32,000 nt of DNA. Origin: Paenibacillus montaniterrae (GTDB taxonomy: Bacteria > Bacillota > Bacilli > Paenibacillales > Paenibacillaceae). The notes beneath the pieces were generated by a model. The model searched no databases. It was given only the letters and a program-made list of their open reading frames with translations, and was not told the origin of the DNA. Both the position numbers and the translations under genes were made by a program. The DNA is taken from the NCBI RefSeq assembly GCF_018403185.1, contig NZ_BOSE01000012.1:94194-126193 (forward strand), given 5' to 3'. This document shows positions 8,762-31,090 of this stretch, in pieces. The stretch's first letter is position 1. Each line of letters starts with the position of its first letter.

Positions 8762-9145
8762 ATGAGAATATCCAATACATTATTTAATGAGATCGTTGAT
8801 GACATTGAACAGTATATTCCGAAGCTTATTACAGCAAGCCATTCTATTGGCGACTTATTCTACGAACCATTAACGAATGAAGGTAGTCAATTCTTCTCAG
8901 ATTACATTACAGGTCTAAGTAACCTCATTCAAACGGTTATGATGACCTTAAAGGACGCTGCAGACCATGCTCCATCAATGATAGAACCAGTTACATATGC
9001 GTTGCAAGCGATACCTGAACAGGTTGCAGAGCTAGAAAAGGCTCTAGCACAGCAGCAGTTTGTGCATGTTGCAGATATATTAAAATATGAATTAGCAGAC
9101 CATTTGGATAAACTATTACAAGCACTAAAGGAGTCTCGCTCATAA
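8762..9145 (+). CDS. Hypothetical small helical protein (127 aa), translationally coupled to maf
   Basis: The ORF has RBS AGGAG 7 nt upstream of ATG 8762. Its stop overlaps the maf start (TAATG at 9143-9147). I recognised no family motif. Confidence 0.6.
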   Translation: MRISNTLFNEIVDDIEQYIPKLITASHSIGDLFYEPLTNEGSQFFSDYITGLSNLIQTVMMTLKDAADHAPSMIEPVTYALQAIPEQVAELEKALAQQQFVHVADILKYELADHLDKLLQALKESRS

Positions 9146-10989
9146 TGAATATGCAGCAGGATAATTTAGCTTATCTAAAGAAATATCATCCTCAAATTTA
9201 TAATGCTGTAAATCAAGCAACAAATAGCAATGTGCTAGAAAATTATGAATTGATTCAGAACCGTAATCAATCCTACAATATTTGTATAAAGAACTGGAAC
9301 GATAGCATGCTCTATAGCAAATACGACCCCGCGTACGAGGCACAACGCTGGTGTCAATCACTGGATTATATAGAGCAAAATGAAGACGATGTTATTCTAT
9401 TTGGTTTAGGCTTAACTTATCATTTATCAGCTTTAATTGAGCAATTTCCTAATCGAAGATTTATTATTATCGAGCCTGAAGTGGGTCTGTTTATGCAGAT
9501 GATCAAAATTGTAGACATTTCACAATTATTAAGTCATCCGAATATTAAGCATATTGGAGTAGGGAAAGAGGATTCAACTATAGAGCAGTTTTTAGAATTT
9601 ATTAAAAAATATTGCACGTTCCAGTATCGCTATGTTCGAATTCCTTTTTATGACAAGCTTTCATTAGAAACAGAAAAAGTATTTTTAGAGAAGCTTAAAA
9701 AGATCGATCTTGAAAAGAAAGCGGTGCAAGGCTTCCATAAAACATTTGGAAAAGTCATGTATCAAAATTCTTTGAGAAATATTCCAAAATTACTAAGTAC
9801 ACCTGTACTAAAAACACTGGAACAGCGTTTTCCGGGATCGACTGCGGTCATAATTGGCGGAGGACCTTCTTTGCAATACGACGTTAATCGCATTAAGGAG
9901 AATATTGATAACTGGCTTATCATAGCAGCAGGATCAAGTATACAGAGCTTGCGTCACTATGGCATTCAACCACATTTGATTGTTTCGATGGATCCGGGTG
10001 TATACAATACGAAAATATTTCGGGCATATGACTATGCAGACATTCCAATGCTAGTCATGCCTCAAATTCATCATGAAATTCTAACTATTCATGCTAAGAA
10101 CAATGTATATGCTTATTATAACAATGATCCAATGATTAATTATTTGATCCCTTACCAGGATCAAAATTATGTGCTGAAGCCTACATTCTCTGTAACTGGT
10201 ACAGCTATTCAAGCAGCCGTCTATATGGGGGCCAACCGAATAATCTTTACGGGACAGGACTTATCGTATCCGAATAAGCAACAATATGCAGCAGGTGCAG
10301 AACATGTTACTGAGGCTATGAAAAAAAATAAGGAAAAAGAGCTACAATACGAGGTCGAAAATGTGTATGGGAATTTGAATCCTACCACGTTCAGCATGCT
10401 GCAAACATTAAAAGATATCGAGCAGCTTATTGCAGAATTTACGTCGGTAGAGTTTATAAATGCTTCTAAATCGGGTGCCAAAATTGAAGGAACAACTTTT
10501 AAAAGTATAGAATTAATCACAACATCTGCTACATGTTATAATTTTAACATTCTAAATAGCCTTATAGAAGATCAGGCTGTTTTACATAAAATTGATCGTC
10601 ATTCGATTATAAAAAAAGTTGAACGTACAGTGAAATTCTCTTACATGTTATTAAAGGCTATATCCTTTAATCTAAGAAAATTCAATGAACTTAATAAAAT
10701 AGTTCATAAGGCTCCAAAACAAGGCAAGCTTTTGTTGCTTGAAATAGAAGAAAGCCTAGATCGACTCTTTAATAAAGAAGAATTTAAGGAGTTTATTGCG
10801 CATTGGTTTATAGTAGAGCTAAACATATGCGAACAACACATAATAGAAGCACATGGCGAGCAAAATGTTATTAAAAAAGCGGAGATCTATAACAGAAGCA
10901 TACCTGCATTATTGCAAACTATGAAAACATGGCTCCCAACTATTACCAGTGAGCAAGAGGAGCTTATAATTCAGTTAAAGAATAAGTAA
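9145..10989 (+). CDS. maf: Motility accessory factor (Maf, DUF115/MptE-like), a putative flagellin nonulosonic-acid transferase
   Basis: 614 aa. The central block STAVIIGGGPSLQYD...LIIAAGSSIQ...IVSMDPG...FTGQDLSY matches the conserved Maf/DUF115 core. It lies next to flagellin and the pse genes. Confidence 0.85.
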   Translation: MNMQQDNLAYLKKYHPQIYNAVNQATNSNVLENYELIQNRNQSYNICIKNWNDSMLYSKYDPAYEAQRWCQSLDYIEQNEDDVILFGLGLTYHLSALIEQFPNRRFIIIEPEVGLFMQMIKIVDISQLLSHPNIKHIGVGKEDSTIEQFLEFIKKYCTFQYRYVRIPFYDKLSLETEKVFLEKLKKIDLEKKAVQGFHKTFGKVMYQNSLRNIPKLLSTPVLKTLEQRFPGSTAVIIGGGPSLQYDVNRIKENIDNWLIIAAGSSIQSLRHYGIQPHLIVSMDPGVYNTKIFRAYDYADIPMLVMPQIHHEILTIHAKNNVYAYYNNDPMINYLIPYQDQNYVLKPTFSVTGTAIQAAVYMGANRIIFTGQDLSYPNKQQYAAGAEHVTEAMKKNKEKELQYEVENVYGNLNPTTFSMLQTLKDIEQLIAEFTSVEFINASKSGAKIEGTTFKSIELITTSATCYNFNILNSLIEDQAVLHKIDRHSIIKKVERTVKFSYMLLKAISFNLRKFNELNKIVHKAPKQGKLLLLEIEESLDRLFNKEEFKEFIAHWFIVELNICEQHIIEAHGEQNVIKKAEIYNRSIPALLQTMKTWLPTITSEQEELIIQLKNK

Positions 10990-11027
10990 TTCAAACTTTA
11001 TATTATGAATAAAAACAGGTGAATATA

Positions 11028-30276: not shown

Positions 30277-30292
30277 AGCGAGGTAAGCCGAT

Positions 30293-31090
30293 ATGAAAGT
30301 GATCATAATGACAGGTTCGCACCCAAGGCATTATTATGTAGCTGAGCAATTAATCAAGACAGGAAAAGTAGTTGGCTGTCTAATTGAGCATAGAGAGAGC
30401 TTTGTTCCTGATCCGCCAGCTTCATTAAATGATCAGGACAAGCAAAACTTTATTCGTCATTTCCATGATCGAGACCAGTCGGAGCGTGCGATGTTTCCTT
30501 CGACTATAACGATACCGGATAGCGTTTCCGTAAGAAACGTTACGATTGATCAGCTGAATAGCCCGGAAACGATCAAGTGGATGACTTCCCTTGAGGCAGA
30601 TGTGCTGATCAGCTATGGTGTGCATAAGTTAAGCAACGAGCTGTTGGCAGAAGCGCCTGAGTATGCATGGAATATTCATGGCGGGCTGTCTCCGTGGTAC
30701 CGCGGCACGACAACTCTATTTTGGCCATTTTATATGCTGCAGCCGAATTGGGCGGGGATGACCGTTCATAAGCTGACAGCCAAGCTGGATGCAGGAGATA
30801 TTTTGCATCATTCTGTCCCTGAGCTTAACTATGGTGACGGTATACACGATGTGGCTAATAAGGCGGTAAAGCAGGTTGCGGAGGATTTAAGCTACATATT
30901 AACGAACCTAAAGCTTGAGGAGCTCAGCTTTGTGCCGCAAAAATCAGCGGGCAAGCTGTTCTTATCTTCGGATTGGAAGCCAGAGCATTTAAGAGTGATC
31001 TATCAGCTTTTTGACAATAACATTGTAGATCGTTTTTTGGATGGAGAATTCCCTCGTACTGAGCCTCCTTTAGTACGAGCTTTTCATTGA
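30293..31090 (+). CDS. Formyltransferase-family protein (Fmt N-domain-like)
   Basis: WNIHGGLSPWYRGTTTLFW corresponds to the formyltransferase HxSLLPxxRG loop. The downstream MTVHKLTAKLDAGDIL corresponds to the xxD(T/A)GxI motif. The protein is 265 aa. Confidence 0.8.
   Translation: MKVIIMTGSHPRHYYVAEQLIKTGKVVGCLIEHRESFVPDPPASLNDQDKQNFIRHFHDRDQSERAMFPSTITIPDSVSVRNVTIDQLNSPETIKWMTSLEADVLISYGVHKLSNELLAEAPEYAWNIHGGLSPWYRGTTTLFWPFYMLQPNWAGMTVHKLTAKLDAGDILHHSVPELNYGDGIHDVANKAVKQVAEDLSYILTNLKLEELSFVPQKSAGKLFLSSDWKPEHLRVIYQLFDNNIVDRFLDGEFPRTEPPLVRAFH

What the first reader, a model, noticed from the sequence alone, without database searches (positions are those of the whole stretch)
9145..31090. Composite flagellin glycosylation island: two nucleotide-sugar pathways, four transferases, all apparently cytosolic
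The 21 co-directional genes from maf to the formyltransferase, between the flagellin genes and the csp gene, encode several distinct functions. (a) A Pse-type nonulosonate route: pseB at 11028 and pseF/G/I/C at 25048-28938. (b) A dTDP-4-amino-4,6-dideoxyhexose route: rmlA, rmlB and a WecE-like gene. (c) Four candidate transferases: Maf, GT2-TPR, GT4-like and GT56. (d) Eight tailoring enzymes. I saw no hydrophobic membrane-spanning protein, polyprenyl-phosphate transferase, flippase or polymerase, which fits direct cytoplasmic glycosylation of flagellin. Four transferases against two dedicated donor pathways predicts a heteroglycan, or two separate glycans, that also uses housekeeping UDP-sugars. 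I do not know of any described flagellin that combines a nonulosonic acid with an ECA-like Fuc4N-type sugar.
Basis: partly seen in the sequence, partly recalled or inferred. Interest (0 to 1): 0.7.

Follow-up and report, generated by a model that had tools for sequence, protein, structure and literature searches.

The report
Mosaic flagellin glycosylation island in Paenibacillus
This is a real but fairly ordinary "flagellin glycosylation island": a block of soluble enzymes next to the flagellin genes of Paenibacillus montaniterrae that most likely decorates flagellin with a pseudaminic-acid-type sugar and a second glycan capped by an unusually acylated amino-deoxy sugar. Its most interesting part is a widespread, uncharacterised sugar-acylation gene module.

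Summary

- **Pse route:** PseB, PseC, PseG and PseI pass curated cut-offs. PseH is absent and the cytidylyltransferase is not a canonical PseF.
- **dTDP route:** RmlA, RmlB and a WecE-type transaminase pass curated cut-offs.
- **Transferases:** Maf, GT2 with weak TPR, GT4 and GT56.
- **Tailoring:** nine genes, not eight.
- **Membrane parts:** none. No hydrophobic segment, lipid-carrier transferase, flippase or polymerase was found.

The island is a mosaic. A 16-kb block of 28-36% GC (8741-25042) abuts a 42-48% GC core (pseF-like to formyltransferase). That core is conserved next to csp in relatives, which carry other modules upstream.

- maf, pseB, GT2-TPR and GT4 are syntenic with flagellar islands of Psychrobacillus and Lysinibacillus.
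- wecE, ATP-grasp, amidohydrolase-like, RraA-like aldolase and methyltransferase form a module found in many phyla, mostly in polysaccharide loci.

The best reading is cytoplasmic O-glycosylation of flagellin with a Pse derivative plus a short glycan capped by N-acylated Fuc4N. Composite islands of this kind are already described from genomes of Geobacillus and Clostridium. It is a new member of a known kind, of moderate interest.

The parts
6785..6792 (+). sigmaD-like -10 box (TCCGATAA) upstream of flagellin 1
   Evidence: TCCGATAW occurs 5 times in the window against 1.65 expected. Three of the five sit in the intergenic regions before hag1, hag2 and DUF8042-maf.
6841..7671 (+). flagellin 1 (276 aa, D0/D1 only, Ser/Thr-rich variable centre at about residues 138-185)
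7774..7781 (+). sigmaD-like -10 box upstream of flagellin 2
7839..8651 (+). flagellin 2 (270 aa). Nearly identical to flagellin 1 except for the central ~45 residues.
8670..8693 (+). intrinsic terminator after flagellin 2 (GGCTGCC-GTCA-GGCAGCC followed by a T run)
   Evidence: Read directly from the sequence.
8716..8723 (+). sigmaD-like -10 box (TCCGATAT) in front of the glycosylation operon
8741..9145 (+). DUF8042 protein. A predicted four-helix bundle and a candidate GlfM-like specificity factor for Maf.
   Evidence: The DUF8042 label comes from precomputed Pfam. It is always next to Maf in L007, L089 and L090. The AF2 model has four helices, pLDDT 79. GlfM is described in bioRxiv 10.1101/2023.12.03.569772.
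9145..10989 (+). Maf-type flagellin nonulosonate transferase (614 aa)
   Evidence: MptE-like 128.8 bits, Maf_flag10_N 32.8 bits.
11019..12002 (+). PseB (likely start at 11028)
   Evidence: 525 bits vs cut-off 408. 79-80% identical to PseB of the Psychrobacillus and Lysinibacillus flagellar islands.
12022..13182 (+). GT2 glycosyltransferase with a C-terminal TPR-like region. Candidate flagellin-initiating transferase.
   Evidence: GT2 111.6 bits; TPR_1 23.3 bits, below cut-off. Syntenic homologues in L089 and L090.
13221..14462 (+). GT4-family (GT-B) glycosyltransferase
   Evidence: 27.5 bits vs 28.5; homologues carry PF13439, PF13579 and PF00534. Syntenic in L089 and L090.
14470..15630 (+). 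GT56-family transferase. Related to WecF but not an orthologue. Candidate transferase for the dTDP sugar.
   Evidence: Homologues lie next to the same ATP-grasp module in L007, L008 and L009.
15770..16645 (+). RmlA
   Evidence: 442 bits vs 361.
16629..17783 (+). WecE-type dTDP-4-keto-6-deoxyglucose 4-aminotransferase
   Evidence: 618 bits vs 375. (523 bits to E. coli WecE 4piw/4zah).
17780..18979 (+). ATP-grasp carboxylate-amine ligase (LAL_C2 type). Candidate N-acylase of the 4-amino sugar.
18972..19736 (+). divergent Amidohydro_2-like protein (module member)
   Evidence: 26.4 bits, at cut-off. Conserved next to the ATP-grasp gene in 28 of 80 loci.
19726..20373 (+). RraA-like protein (class II pyruvate aldolase / oxaloacetate decarboxylase family)
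   Evidence: Within 5 kb of the ATP-grasp gene in 49 of 80 loci.
20397..21086 (+). SAM-dependent methyltransferase (module member)
21076..22236 (+). class-I (aspartate-aminotransferase-like) aminotransferase. Accessory module member.
   Evidence: Homologues in 21 of 80 loci.
22361..23389 (+). RmlB
   Evidence: 445 bits vs 365.
23418..24350 (+). PylC-like ATP-grasp ligase. Travels with the nonulosonate genes.
   Evidence: Adjacent to HAD and the cytidylyltransferase in C. sporogenes L004 and in L094. CA_C2189/2190 in PMC4000134.
24347..25042 (+). HAD-family hydrolase
25015..25770 (+). CMP-nonulosonate-type cytidylyltransferase (CTP_transf_3; not a canonical PseF; likely start at 25048)
25767..26753 (+). 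PseG
   Evidence: 273 bits vs 154.
26720..27796 (+). PseI
   Evidence: 492 bits vs 340.
27793..28938 (+). PseC
   Evidence: 505 bits vs 424.
28951..30276 (+). DUF4910/DUF2172/HTH_47 peptidase-like protein (CA_C2195 family)
   Evidence: (333 bits to 3k9t). PMC4000134.
30293..31090 (+). sugar N-formyltransferase-like protein
31456..31659 (+). cold-shock protein gene. Conserved 3' boundary of the island slot.
   Evidence: Same boundary in L006, L091, L093 and L094.

Best explanation
This is a flagellin glycosylation island of Paenibacillus montaniterrae. It works entirely in the cytoplasm and is probably transcribed with the late (sigmaD-type) flagellar genes.

**Branch 1 (partly shown by homology).** PseB, PseC, PseG, PseI and a non-canonical cytidylyltransferase make a CMP-pseudaminic-acid derivative from UDP-GlcNAc.
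- The missing PseH acetylation step is inferred to be replaced or supplemented by the formyltransferase, the DUF4910 protein and/or the PylC-like ATP-grasp ligase with HAD. The sugar is therefore probably not plain Pse5Ac7Ac.
- Maf, helped by the adjacent four-helix DUF8042 protein (GlfM-like), puts this sugar on Ser/Thr of the short exposed centre of the two flagellins.

**Branch 2 (inferred).** RmlA, RmlB and the WecE-type transaminase make dTDP-4-amino-4,6-dideoxyhexose, most likely Fuc4N.
- The ATP-grasp ligase N-acylates it with an organic or amino acid. That acid is supplied by the RraA-like aldolase, the amidohydrolase-like protein, the class-I aminotransferase and the methyltransferase.
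- The GT2-TPR enzyme starts a second O-glycan on flagellin from a housekeeping UDP-sugar. GT4 extends it and GT56 caps it with the acylated amino sugar.

**Origin.** The island is an evolutionary mosaic. A conserved native 3' Pse core is joined to a horizontally acquired, low-GC 5' block assembled from two mobile modules.
For: **Position and regulation.**
- The island lies between flgM...fliS-hag1-hag2 and csp.
- SigmaD-like -10 boxes sit before hag1, hag2 and DUF8042-maf. There are 5 matches against 1.65 expected.

**Enzyme identities.** Curated cut-offs are passed for PseB, PseC, PseG, PseI, RmlA, RmlB and WecE.

**Cytoplasmic mode.** No hydrophobic segment was found. No lipid-carrier or export domains were found.

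**Flagellar use of the 5' module.** The order flagellin-Maf-DUF8042-Maf-PseB-GT2-TPR-GT4 is found in Psychrobacillus and Lysinibacillus. Identities to the window are PseB 79-80% and GT4 41-44%.

**Flagellar use of the dTDP/acylation module.**
- In Cohnella it occupies the same fliS...csp slot.
- It lies next to Maf and DUF8042 in Phosphitispora and Thermincola.

**Coherence of the module.** Of 80 loci from many phyla, the following lie within 5 kb of the ATP-grasp gene: RraA-like in 49, a DegT aminotransferase in 50, Amidohydro_2 in 28, the methyltransferase in 22 and the class-I aminotransferase in 21.

**Assignment of ATP-grasp 2 and HAD to the nonulosonate branch.**, and PMC4000134.

**Mosaicism.**
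- GC and GC3 step down at about 8.7 kb and up again at about 25 kb.
- Relatives keep pseF-G-I-C, DUF4910, the formyltransferase and csp at 69-100% identity. Upstream they carry AMP-binding, LuxE and LuxC genes instead.

**Precedents.**
- TPR and GlfM as flagellin-binding elements.
- ATP-grasp-dependent peptidyl cap on Fuc3N of C. difficile flagellin.
- N-acyl viosamine cap in P. syringae.
- PseJ formyltransferase for Pse5Ac7Fo.
Against: - Nothing here shows that the flagellin is glycosylated.
- PseH is absent and the cytidylyltransferase fails the PseF model, so the nonulosonate product is uncertain.
- The formyltransferase resembles ArnA (48.8 bits) more than PseJ (28.7 bits).
- In L094 the formyltransferase coexists with a hexapeptide acyltransferase. 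That weakens the idea that it replaces PseH.
- TPR evidence in the GT2 protein is below the Pfam cut-off.
- The archetypal GT56 (WecF) acts on a lipid-linked acceptor.
- The ATP-grasp/RraA module is mostly found in non-flagellar polysaccharide loci. Only 1 of 80 loci has Maf nearby and 1 of 80 has flagellin. In Methylophilus it sits with Wzx and Bac_transf.
- In L036 the ATP-grasp, amidohydrolase-like and RraA-like trio sits inside a Pse cluster without WecE. Its amine substrate in the window could therefore be the Pse precursor.
- The number of glycans and the order of the transferases are pure inference.
Confidence: 0.6

Rival explanations
1. One heteroglycan rather than two. Maf attaches the Pse derivative to flagellin. 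GT2-TPR, GT4 and GT56 then extend that Pse, ending in the acylated Fuc4N. This would be a Pse-linked oligosaccharide like the Aeromonas hydrophila AH-3 polar flagellin heptasaccharide.
For: A Pse-linked heteroglycan is experimentally known (PMC3958885). All transferases lie in one operon-like block. Maf and the GT56/acylation module co-occur in three unrelated Firmicutes: the window, L007 and L009.
Against: GT2 enzymes with TPR tails are treated in the field as flagellin-binding initiating transferases. The GT2-TPR + GT4 pair and the ATP-grasp module each occur in flagellar loci independently of one another. That fits a separate glycan better.
Confidence: 0.2
2. The dTDP / GT56 / ATP-grasp block does not serve flagellin. 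It is a hitch-hiking polysaccharide or other glycoconjugate module whose product goes to a wall polymer, S-layer or spore surface. It would use carrier and export genes encoded elsewhere.
For: The module is overwhelmingly found in non-flagellar loci, including non-motile Bacteroidales and Akkermansia and an archaeon. In Methylophilus it lies with Wzx, GT2 genes and Bac_transf. WecF-family enzymes classically use a lipid-linked acceptor.
Against: No membrane protein, initiating phosphotransferase, flippase, polymerase or ligase lies in the 22 kb. The block is embedded between maf/pseB and the rest of the Pse genes, behind a sigmaD-like promoter. The same module sits in the flagellar slot of Cohnella and beside Maf in two Clostridia-class genomes.
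Confidence: 0.1
3. The ATP-grasp, amidohydrolase-like and RraA-like trio acylates the Pse precursor (UDP-4-amino-4,6-dideoxy-L-AltNAc), so it is the functional replacement of PseH. The Fuc4N is then formylated by the formyltransferase or left free.
For: PseH is missing. In L036 the trio lies between pseC and pseI/pseG with no WecE-type gene. The formyltransferase has weak similarity to dTDP-Qui4N formyltransferases (VioF 4yfv; PRK07579).
Against: In the window the trio is sandwiched between rmlA-wecE and rmlB. In 25 of 80 loci a WecE-type (>=44% id) transaminase is within 5 kb, against 1 of 80 for a PseC-type. The formyltransferase is conserved together with pseC and DUF4910 in relatives that lack the dTDP block in the sequence held.
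Confidence: 0.1

Closest known systems
Flagellin glycosylation islands of Geobacillus (De Maayer & Cowan 2016, PMC5109656)
   Same: Located beside flagellin genes in a Bacillales genome. They contain Maf, a Pse pathway with pseB at the 5' end and pseC/F/G/I further on, and no PseH. They also carry several GT2 and GT4 genes, dTDP-sugar genes (Rml, FdtB/C) and formyl- and methyltransferases. G+C content deviates from the genome and there are signs of horizontal transfer.
   Different: Those islands are not reported to contain a WecE-type 4-aminotransferase, a GT56 or the ATP-grasp/RraA-like acylation module. Their dTDP sugars are rhamnose or 3-amino sugars.
Flagellar hypervariable region / FGI of Clostridium (Anderson et al. 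2026, PMC13317340)
   Same: A hypervariable slot in the flagellar locus with two flagellins, Mafs (one with GlfM) and GT2-TPR 'flagellin glycosyltransferases'. Predicted mixed glycans include Fuc4N+Glc in C. butyricum and Pse + dideoxyhexose in C. sporogenes.
   Different: A different slot (fliD...flgB). Fuc4N and Pse are not predicted together in the described strains. GT56 and the acylation module are not discussed.
Clostridioides difficile type B flagellin glycan (PMC5207245, PMC5207246)
   Same: A cytoplasmic O-glycan on flagellin whose terminal dTDP-derived amino-dideoxyhexose is N-acylated through an ATP-grasp-dependent step. The core is built by successive soluble GTs.
   Different: The sugar is Fuc3N (FdtB route) with a taurine/Ala/Gly peptide. 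There is no nonulosonate, no Maf, no GT56 and no RraA-like aldolase.
Pseudomonas syringae modified-viosamine flagellin glycan (reviewed in PMC3958885)
   Same: A short chain capped by an N-acylated, methylated 4-amino-4,6-dideoxyhexose.
   Different: The sugar has gluco configuration and a 3-hydroxybutanoyl group made by fatty-acid-type enzymes. The transferases differ and there is no nonulosonate.
Enterobacterial common antigen Fuc4NAc branch (RmlA/RmlB/WecE/WecD/WecF)
   Same: RmlA, RmlB and a close WecE homologue (523 bits to E. coli WecE). A GT56-family transferase is present.
   Different: There is no WecD acetyltransferase. The GT56 is far below the WecF cut-offs. WecA, Wzx, Wzy and Wzz are absent. 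The acceptor is presumably a protein-linked glycan, not Und-PP-lipid II.
GlfM-Maf-2 tripartite flagellin sialyltransferase system (Unay, Kint & Viollier, bioRxiv 10.1101/2023.12.03.569772)
   Same: A small four-helix protein is encoded next to maf inside a Pse-containing flagellar locus, including in Planococcaceae (Kurthia).
   Different: The DUF8042 protein is 134 aa (GlfM of Shewanella is 89 aa) and lies upstream of a long 614-aa Maf. Sequence relatedness to GlfM could not be tested here.

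Membership tests
Flagellin glycosylation island (cytoplasmic O-glycosylation) | Located within or adjacent to the flagellin / late flagellar genes | tested here: met
   flgM-flgK-flgL-fliW-csrA-flaG-fliD-fliS-hag1-hag2 lie immediately upstream. 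A sigmaD-like box sits before the operon.
Flagellin glycosylation island (cytoplasmic O-glycosylation) | A flagellin-specific transferase (Maf and/or a TPR-bearing GT) | tested here: met
   Maf: MptE-like 128.8 bits plus Maf_flag10_N 32.8 bits. The GT2 has a sub-threshold TPR. Syntenic homologues lie in flagellar loci.
Flagellin glycosylation island (cytoplasmic O-glycosylation) | No lipid-carrier initiation, flippase, polymerase or oligosaccharyltransferase | tested here: met
   Maximum KD19 is 1.69. No such Pfam or NCBIfam domains were found.
Flagellin glycosylation island (cytoplasmic O-glycosylation) | Flagellin actually carries the glycan | not testable with these tools
   This needs MS of purified flagellin.
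CMP-pseudaminic acid pathway (PseB/C/H/G/I/F) | PseB, PseC, PseG and PseI equivalogs | tested here: met
   525/408, 505/424, 273/154 and 492/340 bits (score/cut-off).
CMP-pseudaminic acid pathway (PseB/C/H/G/I/F) | PseH N-acetyltransferase | tested here: not met
   No GNAT or hexapeptide acyltransferase lies in any ORF of the window. It may be elsewhere in the genome or be replaced. It is also absent from the Geobacillus islands.
CMP-pseudaminic acid pathway (PseB/C/H/G/I/F) | PseF cytidylyltransferase equivalog | tested here: not met
   TIGR03584 scores 20.4 bits against a cut-off of 205.7. There is only a generic CTP_transf_3 match of 96.8 bits.
ECA-type dTDP-Fuc4NAc branch | RmlA, RmlB and WecE | tested here: met
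   442/361, 445/365 and 618/375 bits. 523 bits to E. coli WecE structures. Galacto versus gluco stereochemistry is not decidable from sequence. TIGR02379, whose name says gluco, scores 621 bits.
ECA-type dTDP-Fuc4NAc branch | WecD acetyltransferase and WecF equivalog | tested here: not met
   There is no acetyltransferase. The best WecF-type model scores 170 bits against a cut-off of 457. The protein is a member of Pfam GT56 only (72 vs 25 bits).
ECA-type dTDP-Fuc4NAc branch | Lipid-linked assembly (WecA, WzxE, WzyE, WzzE) | tested here: not met
   Absent from the window.
GlfM (Maf specificity factor) | Small soluble four-helix-bundle protein encoded next to maf in a Pse/Leg flagellar locus | tested here: met
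   Position. The AF2 model has four helices, pLDDT 79, pTM 0.69.
GlfM (Maf specificity factor) | Sequence homology to characterised GlfM (conserved Asp77) and binding to Maf and flagellin | not tested
   No GlfM sequence was available in the tools. The PDB fold search gave only generic helical bundles.

The most novel reading that the evidence does not exclude
The module of wecE, ATP-grasp ligase, amidohydrolase-like protein, RraA-like aldolase and methyltransferase (with or without the class-I aminotransferase) encodes an uncharacterised pathway. It builds an aldol-derived hydroxy- or amino-acid and ligates it to a nucleotide-4-amino-4,6-dideoxyhexose. More than 1,400 homologues of the ligase exist across bacteria, and one was seen in a methanogen. 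In P. montaniterrae a GT56 enzyme, a family known only from lipid-linked ECA synthesis, would transfer this new sugar onto a protein-bound glycan. The flagellin would then carry both a non-canonical (formylated or aminoacylated) pseudaminic acid and a chemically new capped glycan.
Probability: 0.3. Interest if true: 0.6.

Novelty: new member of a known kind. Interest (0 to 1): 0.35.

Why it matters
Flagellin glycans shape motility, filament stability, immune and plant recognition, and phage adsorption. Their islands are natural toolkits of soluble, carrier-independent glycosyltransferases that are useful for glyco-engineering.

This island adds little conceptually, because hypervariable mosaic flagellin glycosylation islands are already established. 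It does give a compact, membrane-free context in a cultivable Paenibacillus for three tasks:
- finding the product of a very widespread but unstudied ATP-grasp/RraA-like sugar-acylation module;
- testing whether a GT56 (WecF-family) enzyme can act on a protein-linked acceptor;
- finding out how Pse is N-acylated when PseH is missing (roles of the formyltransferase, DUF4910 and the second ATP-grasp ligase).

Tried and rejected
- **Generic promoter/terminator scan of 6300-16000.** Counts were not above shuffles, so it was uninformative.
- **Strict sigmaD pattern TAAA-N13-17-GCCGATA.** No match. The looser -10 TCCGATAW was enriched.
- **PDB sequence searches.** Nothing for the GT4-like protein or the Amidohydro_2-like protein.
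- **AFDB fold search for DUF8042.** The library was unavailable. PDB Foldseek returned only generic four-helix bundles.
- **Literature search for ATP-grasp + RraA + O-antigen.** No papers. The Paenibacillus alvei flagellin paper is not held.
- **Exact-protein look-up of the GT56.** Only unnamed Logan assemblies. The organism came from the homology search.
- **Membrane-linked (S-layer or O-antigen-like) assembly.** Considered and rejected because of the lack of any hydrophobic or carrier protein.
- **True ECA-type Fuc4NAc pathway.** Rejected: no WecD, and the GT56 is far below WecF cut-offs.
- **The formyltransferase as a clear PseJ orthologue.** Rejected: 28.7 bits only, and it coexists with a hexapeptide acyltransferase in L094.
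- **C. sporogenes locus L004.** It shares GT56, WecE, RmlA/B and the ATP-grasp, HAD and cytidylyltransferase triad. No flagellin or Maf lies in the 21 kb held, so I do not count it as a proven flagellar context.

Full report
**Observation.** The window comes from Paenibacillus montaniterrae. The GT56, ATP-grasp and GT4 proteins are 100% identical to NCBI records of that species.

The first 8.7 kb carry a late flagellar operon: flgM, an unassigned ORF, flgK, flgL, fliW, csrA, flaG, fliD, fliS and an unknown ORF. Two short flagellin genes follow at 6841-7671 and 7839-8651.

Twenty-one co-directional genes then run from 9145 to 31090, followed by csp at 31456-31659.
- Passing NCBIfam equivalog cut-offs: PseB, PseC, PseG, PseI, RmlA, RmlB and a WecE-type transaminase.
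- Transferases: Maf, GT2 with a sub-threshold TPR, GT4-like and GT56.
- Others: two ATP-grasp ligases, an Amidohydro_2-like protein, an RraA-like protein, a methyltransferase, a class-I aminotransferase, a HAD hydrolase, a CTP_transf_3 cytidylyltransferase, a DUF4910 protein and a formyltransferase.
- That is nine tailoring genes rather than eight.

No protein has a hydrophobic 19-residue window above 1.69 on the Kyte-Doolittle scale. No lipid-carrier, flippase, polymerase or ABC domain appears. The 'all cytosolic' statement is therefore correct.

1. *The small gene at 8741-9145.*
   - It overlaps the maf start codon and belongs to DUF8042.
   - The same family sits next to Maf in Phosphitispora, Psychrobacillus and Lysinibacillus.
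   - It is predicted to be four helices, with pLDDT 79.
   - This matches the description of GlfM, the cis-encoded four-helix specificity factor that lets Maf-2 bind flagellin (bioRxiv 10.1101/2023.12.03.569772).
   - Homology itself could not be tested, and the PDB fold search was non-specific.
2. *Regulatory signals.* A clean terminator follows flagellin 2 at 8670-8693. A TCCGATAT box at 8716 resembles the boxes before both flagellin genes. There are 5 matches in the window against 1.65 expected. By established knowledge of the Bacillus sigmaD consensus, this ties the operon to late flagellar expression.
3. *Gaps in the Pse route.* PseH is absent. The cytidylyltransferase scores 20 bits against the PseF model, whose cut-off is 206.
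4. *Composition.* The island is mosaic. Positions 8741-25042 are 28-36% GC with GC3 of 0.20-0.33. The flanks and pseG through the formyltransferase are 42-48% GC with GC3 of about 0.45-0.5.

**Comparative evidence.** Three modules can be told apart.

*Module A: DUF8042, maf, pseB, GT2-TPR and GT4.* It is syntenic with the flagellar islands of Psychrobacillus and Lysinibacillus capsici. Those islands read flagellin-Maf-DUF8042-Maf-PseB-GT2-TPR-GT4 and are 31% GC. Identities to the window are PseB 79-80%, GT4 41-44% and GT2-TPR 32-34%.

*Module B: (GT56), rmlA, wecE, ATP-grasp, Amidohydro_2-like, RraA-like, methyltransferase, (class-I aminotransferase) and rmlB.*
- Parts of it occur in the same fliS...csp slot of Cohnella sp. 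CFH 77786.
- It lies beside DUF8042 and Maf in Phosphitispora and beside Maf in Thermincola.
- In Methylophilus it sits in a classic lipid-linked cluster with Wzx, GT2 genes and Bac_transf.
- A scan of species-representative genomes with an alignment of the ligase returned 80 loci. They come from Firmicutes, Bacteroidota, Verrucomicrobiota, Planctomycetota, Acidobacteriota, Proteobacteria and Methanospirillum.
- Within 5 kb of the ligase gene in those 80 loci:

| Neighbour within 5 kb | Loci (of 80) |
|---|---|
| DegT-type aminotransferase | 50 |
| - of which WecE-type (>=44% id) | 25 |
| RraA-like | 49 |
| Amidohydro_2-like | 28 |
| Methyltransferase | 22 |
| Class-I aminotransferase | 21 |
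| GT56 | 4 |

- Anywhere in the sequence held for each locus, only one locus has Maf and one has a flagellin; neither lies within 5 kb of the ligase gene.
- Module B is therefore a generic, widespread amino-sugar N-acylation module that is only occasionally recruited to flagella.
- I found no paper on it.
- Its nearest solved relatives are L-amino-acid ligases and PurT-like ATP-grasp enzymes and HMG/CHA aldolase.

*Module C: pseF-like, pseG, pseI, pseC, DUF4910 and the formyltransferase.*
- This is the native core. Metagenomic relatives keep it at 69-92% protein identity directly before an identical csp.
- Upstream they carry AMP-binding, LuxE and LuxC genes instead of modules A and B.
- A third relative, L094, has pseF-like, PylC-type ATP-grasp, HAD, pseG-like and a hexapeptide acyltransferase before the same core.
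- The ATP-grasp-2/HAD pair therefore travels with the nonulosonate genes. The same is seen in C. sporogenes and C. acetobutylicum (CA_C2189/2190, PMC4000134).
- DUF4910 is the CA_C2195 family: 333 bits to 3k9t. It was previously linked by gene neighbourhood to NeuB, ATP-grasp, SpsF and Maf genes.

**Mechanism.**

*Shown by strong homology.*
- UDP-GlcNAc is converted by PseB, PseC, PseG and PseI toward a pseudaminic-acid-type nonulosonate.
- Glucose-1-phosphate is converted by RmlA, RmlB and the WecE-type enzyme to a dTDP-4-amino-4,6-dideoxyhexose.
- Fuc4N is favoured by 523 bits to E. coli WecE. Stereochemistry is not decidable from sequence.

*Inferred.*
- The missing PseH step is bypassed or replaced by the formyltransferase, DUF4910 and/or ATP-grasp 2. 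The precedent is PseJ for Pse5Ac7Fo. The product would be a non-standard Pse.
- Maf with the GlfM-like protein places this sugar on Ser/Thr of the short variable centre. That centre is the only part in which the two flagellins differ.
- The ATP-grasp ligase acylates the 4-amino group of the dTDP sugar. The acid is made by the RraA-like aldolase, the amidohydrolase-like protein, the aminotransferase and the methyltransferase.
- GT2-TPR starts a second glycan on flagellin, GT4 extends it and GT56 caps it.
- The cap-on-a-short-chain architecture and ATP-grasp-dependent N-acylation have experimental precedents in P. syringae and C. difficile type B flagellin.
- Rival readings are listed separately with tests: one Pse-linked heteroglycan, a non-flagellar target for module B, and the trio acting on the Pse precursor.

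**Comparison with what is known, and novelty.**
- Hypervariable, horizontally exchanged flagellin glycosylation islands are well described from genomes. They combine Maf, a Pse pathway without PseH, several GT2/GT4 enzymes, dTDP-sugar genes and formyl- and methyltransferases.
- They are described in Geobacillus and in Clostridium. The latter include a predicted Fuc4N+Glc island and a Pse + dideoxyhexose island.
- The window is therefore a new member of a known kind.
- It is not an ECA-type system. WecD and the lipid-linked machinery are absent, and the GT56 fails every WecF cut-off.
- No solved flagellin glycan in the searched literature combines a nonulosonate with Fuc4N. The 2026 Clostridium paper states that Fuc4N has not yet been reported in flagellar glycans.
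It is the widespread, unstudied ATP-grasp/RraA-like acylation module and the apparent use of a WecF-family transferase without a lipid carrier.

**Verdict.** The island is ordinary in kind and rich in detail. Interest is 0.35.

Noticed in passing
window 8741-9145: DUF8042 gene overlapping the maf start codon. It is predicted to be a four-helix bundle and is always adjacent to Maf in other Firmicutes. It is probably the GlfM-type Maf specificity factor. It was not included in the finding's coordinates.
   Followed up: partly
window 6785-6792, 7774-7781, 8716-8723 (also 1178, 21638): TCCGATAW boxes (sigmaD-like -10) sit upstream of both flagellin genes and of the glycosylation operon. There are 5 matches against 1.65 expected. 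A strong terminator lies at 8670-8693, between flagellin 2 and the operon.
   Followed up: partly
window 8741-25042 versus flanks: A 16-kb block of 28-36% GC (GC3 0.20-0.33) sits inside 42-48% GC DNA. Relatives L091 and L093 have AMP-binding, LuxE and LuxC genes at that place instead.
   Followed up: yes
L004 (C. sporogenes), L007 (Phosphitispora fastidiosa): An N-terminal domain, C2185-like_N (PF22674), recurs on GT56, several methyltransferases, a Gtf3_C-type GT, a GT2 and an asparagine-synthase-like protein in these islands. It is absent from all window proteins. It may be a shared docking or targeting domain for enzymes that act on the flagellin-bound glycan.
   Followed up: no
L036 (Oscillospiraceae MAG) 6244-15928: The ATP-grasp, Amidohydro_2 and RraA-like trio sits between pseC and pseI/pseG with no WecE-type gene. 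The module may therefore acylate the Pse precursor in some organisms.
   Followed up: no
L035 (Methanospirillum purgamenti), L043/L047/L051 (Akkermansia), many Bacteroidales loci: The ATP-grasp/RraA-like (with or without WecE) module occurs in an archaeon and in non-motile gut bacteria. Its main role is therefore in surface polysaccharides, not flagella.
   Followed up: partly
L006 and L018 (Cohnella sp. CFH 77786): The same genome carries two copies of the acylation module. One is in the fliS...csp flagellar slot and one is on another scaffold.
   Followed up: no
window 6349-6747 and 262-771: Two ORFs in the flagellar operon (132 aa after fliS; 169 aa after flgM) match no Pfam or NCBIfam model. 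By position they could be FliT-like and FlgN-like chaperones.
   Followed up: no
window 6841-8651: The two flagellins are identical over D0/D1 and differ only in about 45 central residues rich in Ser/Thr. Each could present different glycosylation sites to Maf and to GT2-TPR.
   Followed up: no
L094 198-899: A CDP-alcohol phosphatidyltransferase-family gene lies at the 5' end of a related Pse/DUF4910/formyltransferase island. It hints at a phospho-linked substituent in that relative.
   Followed up: no
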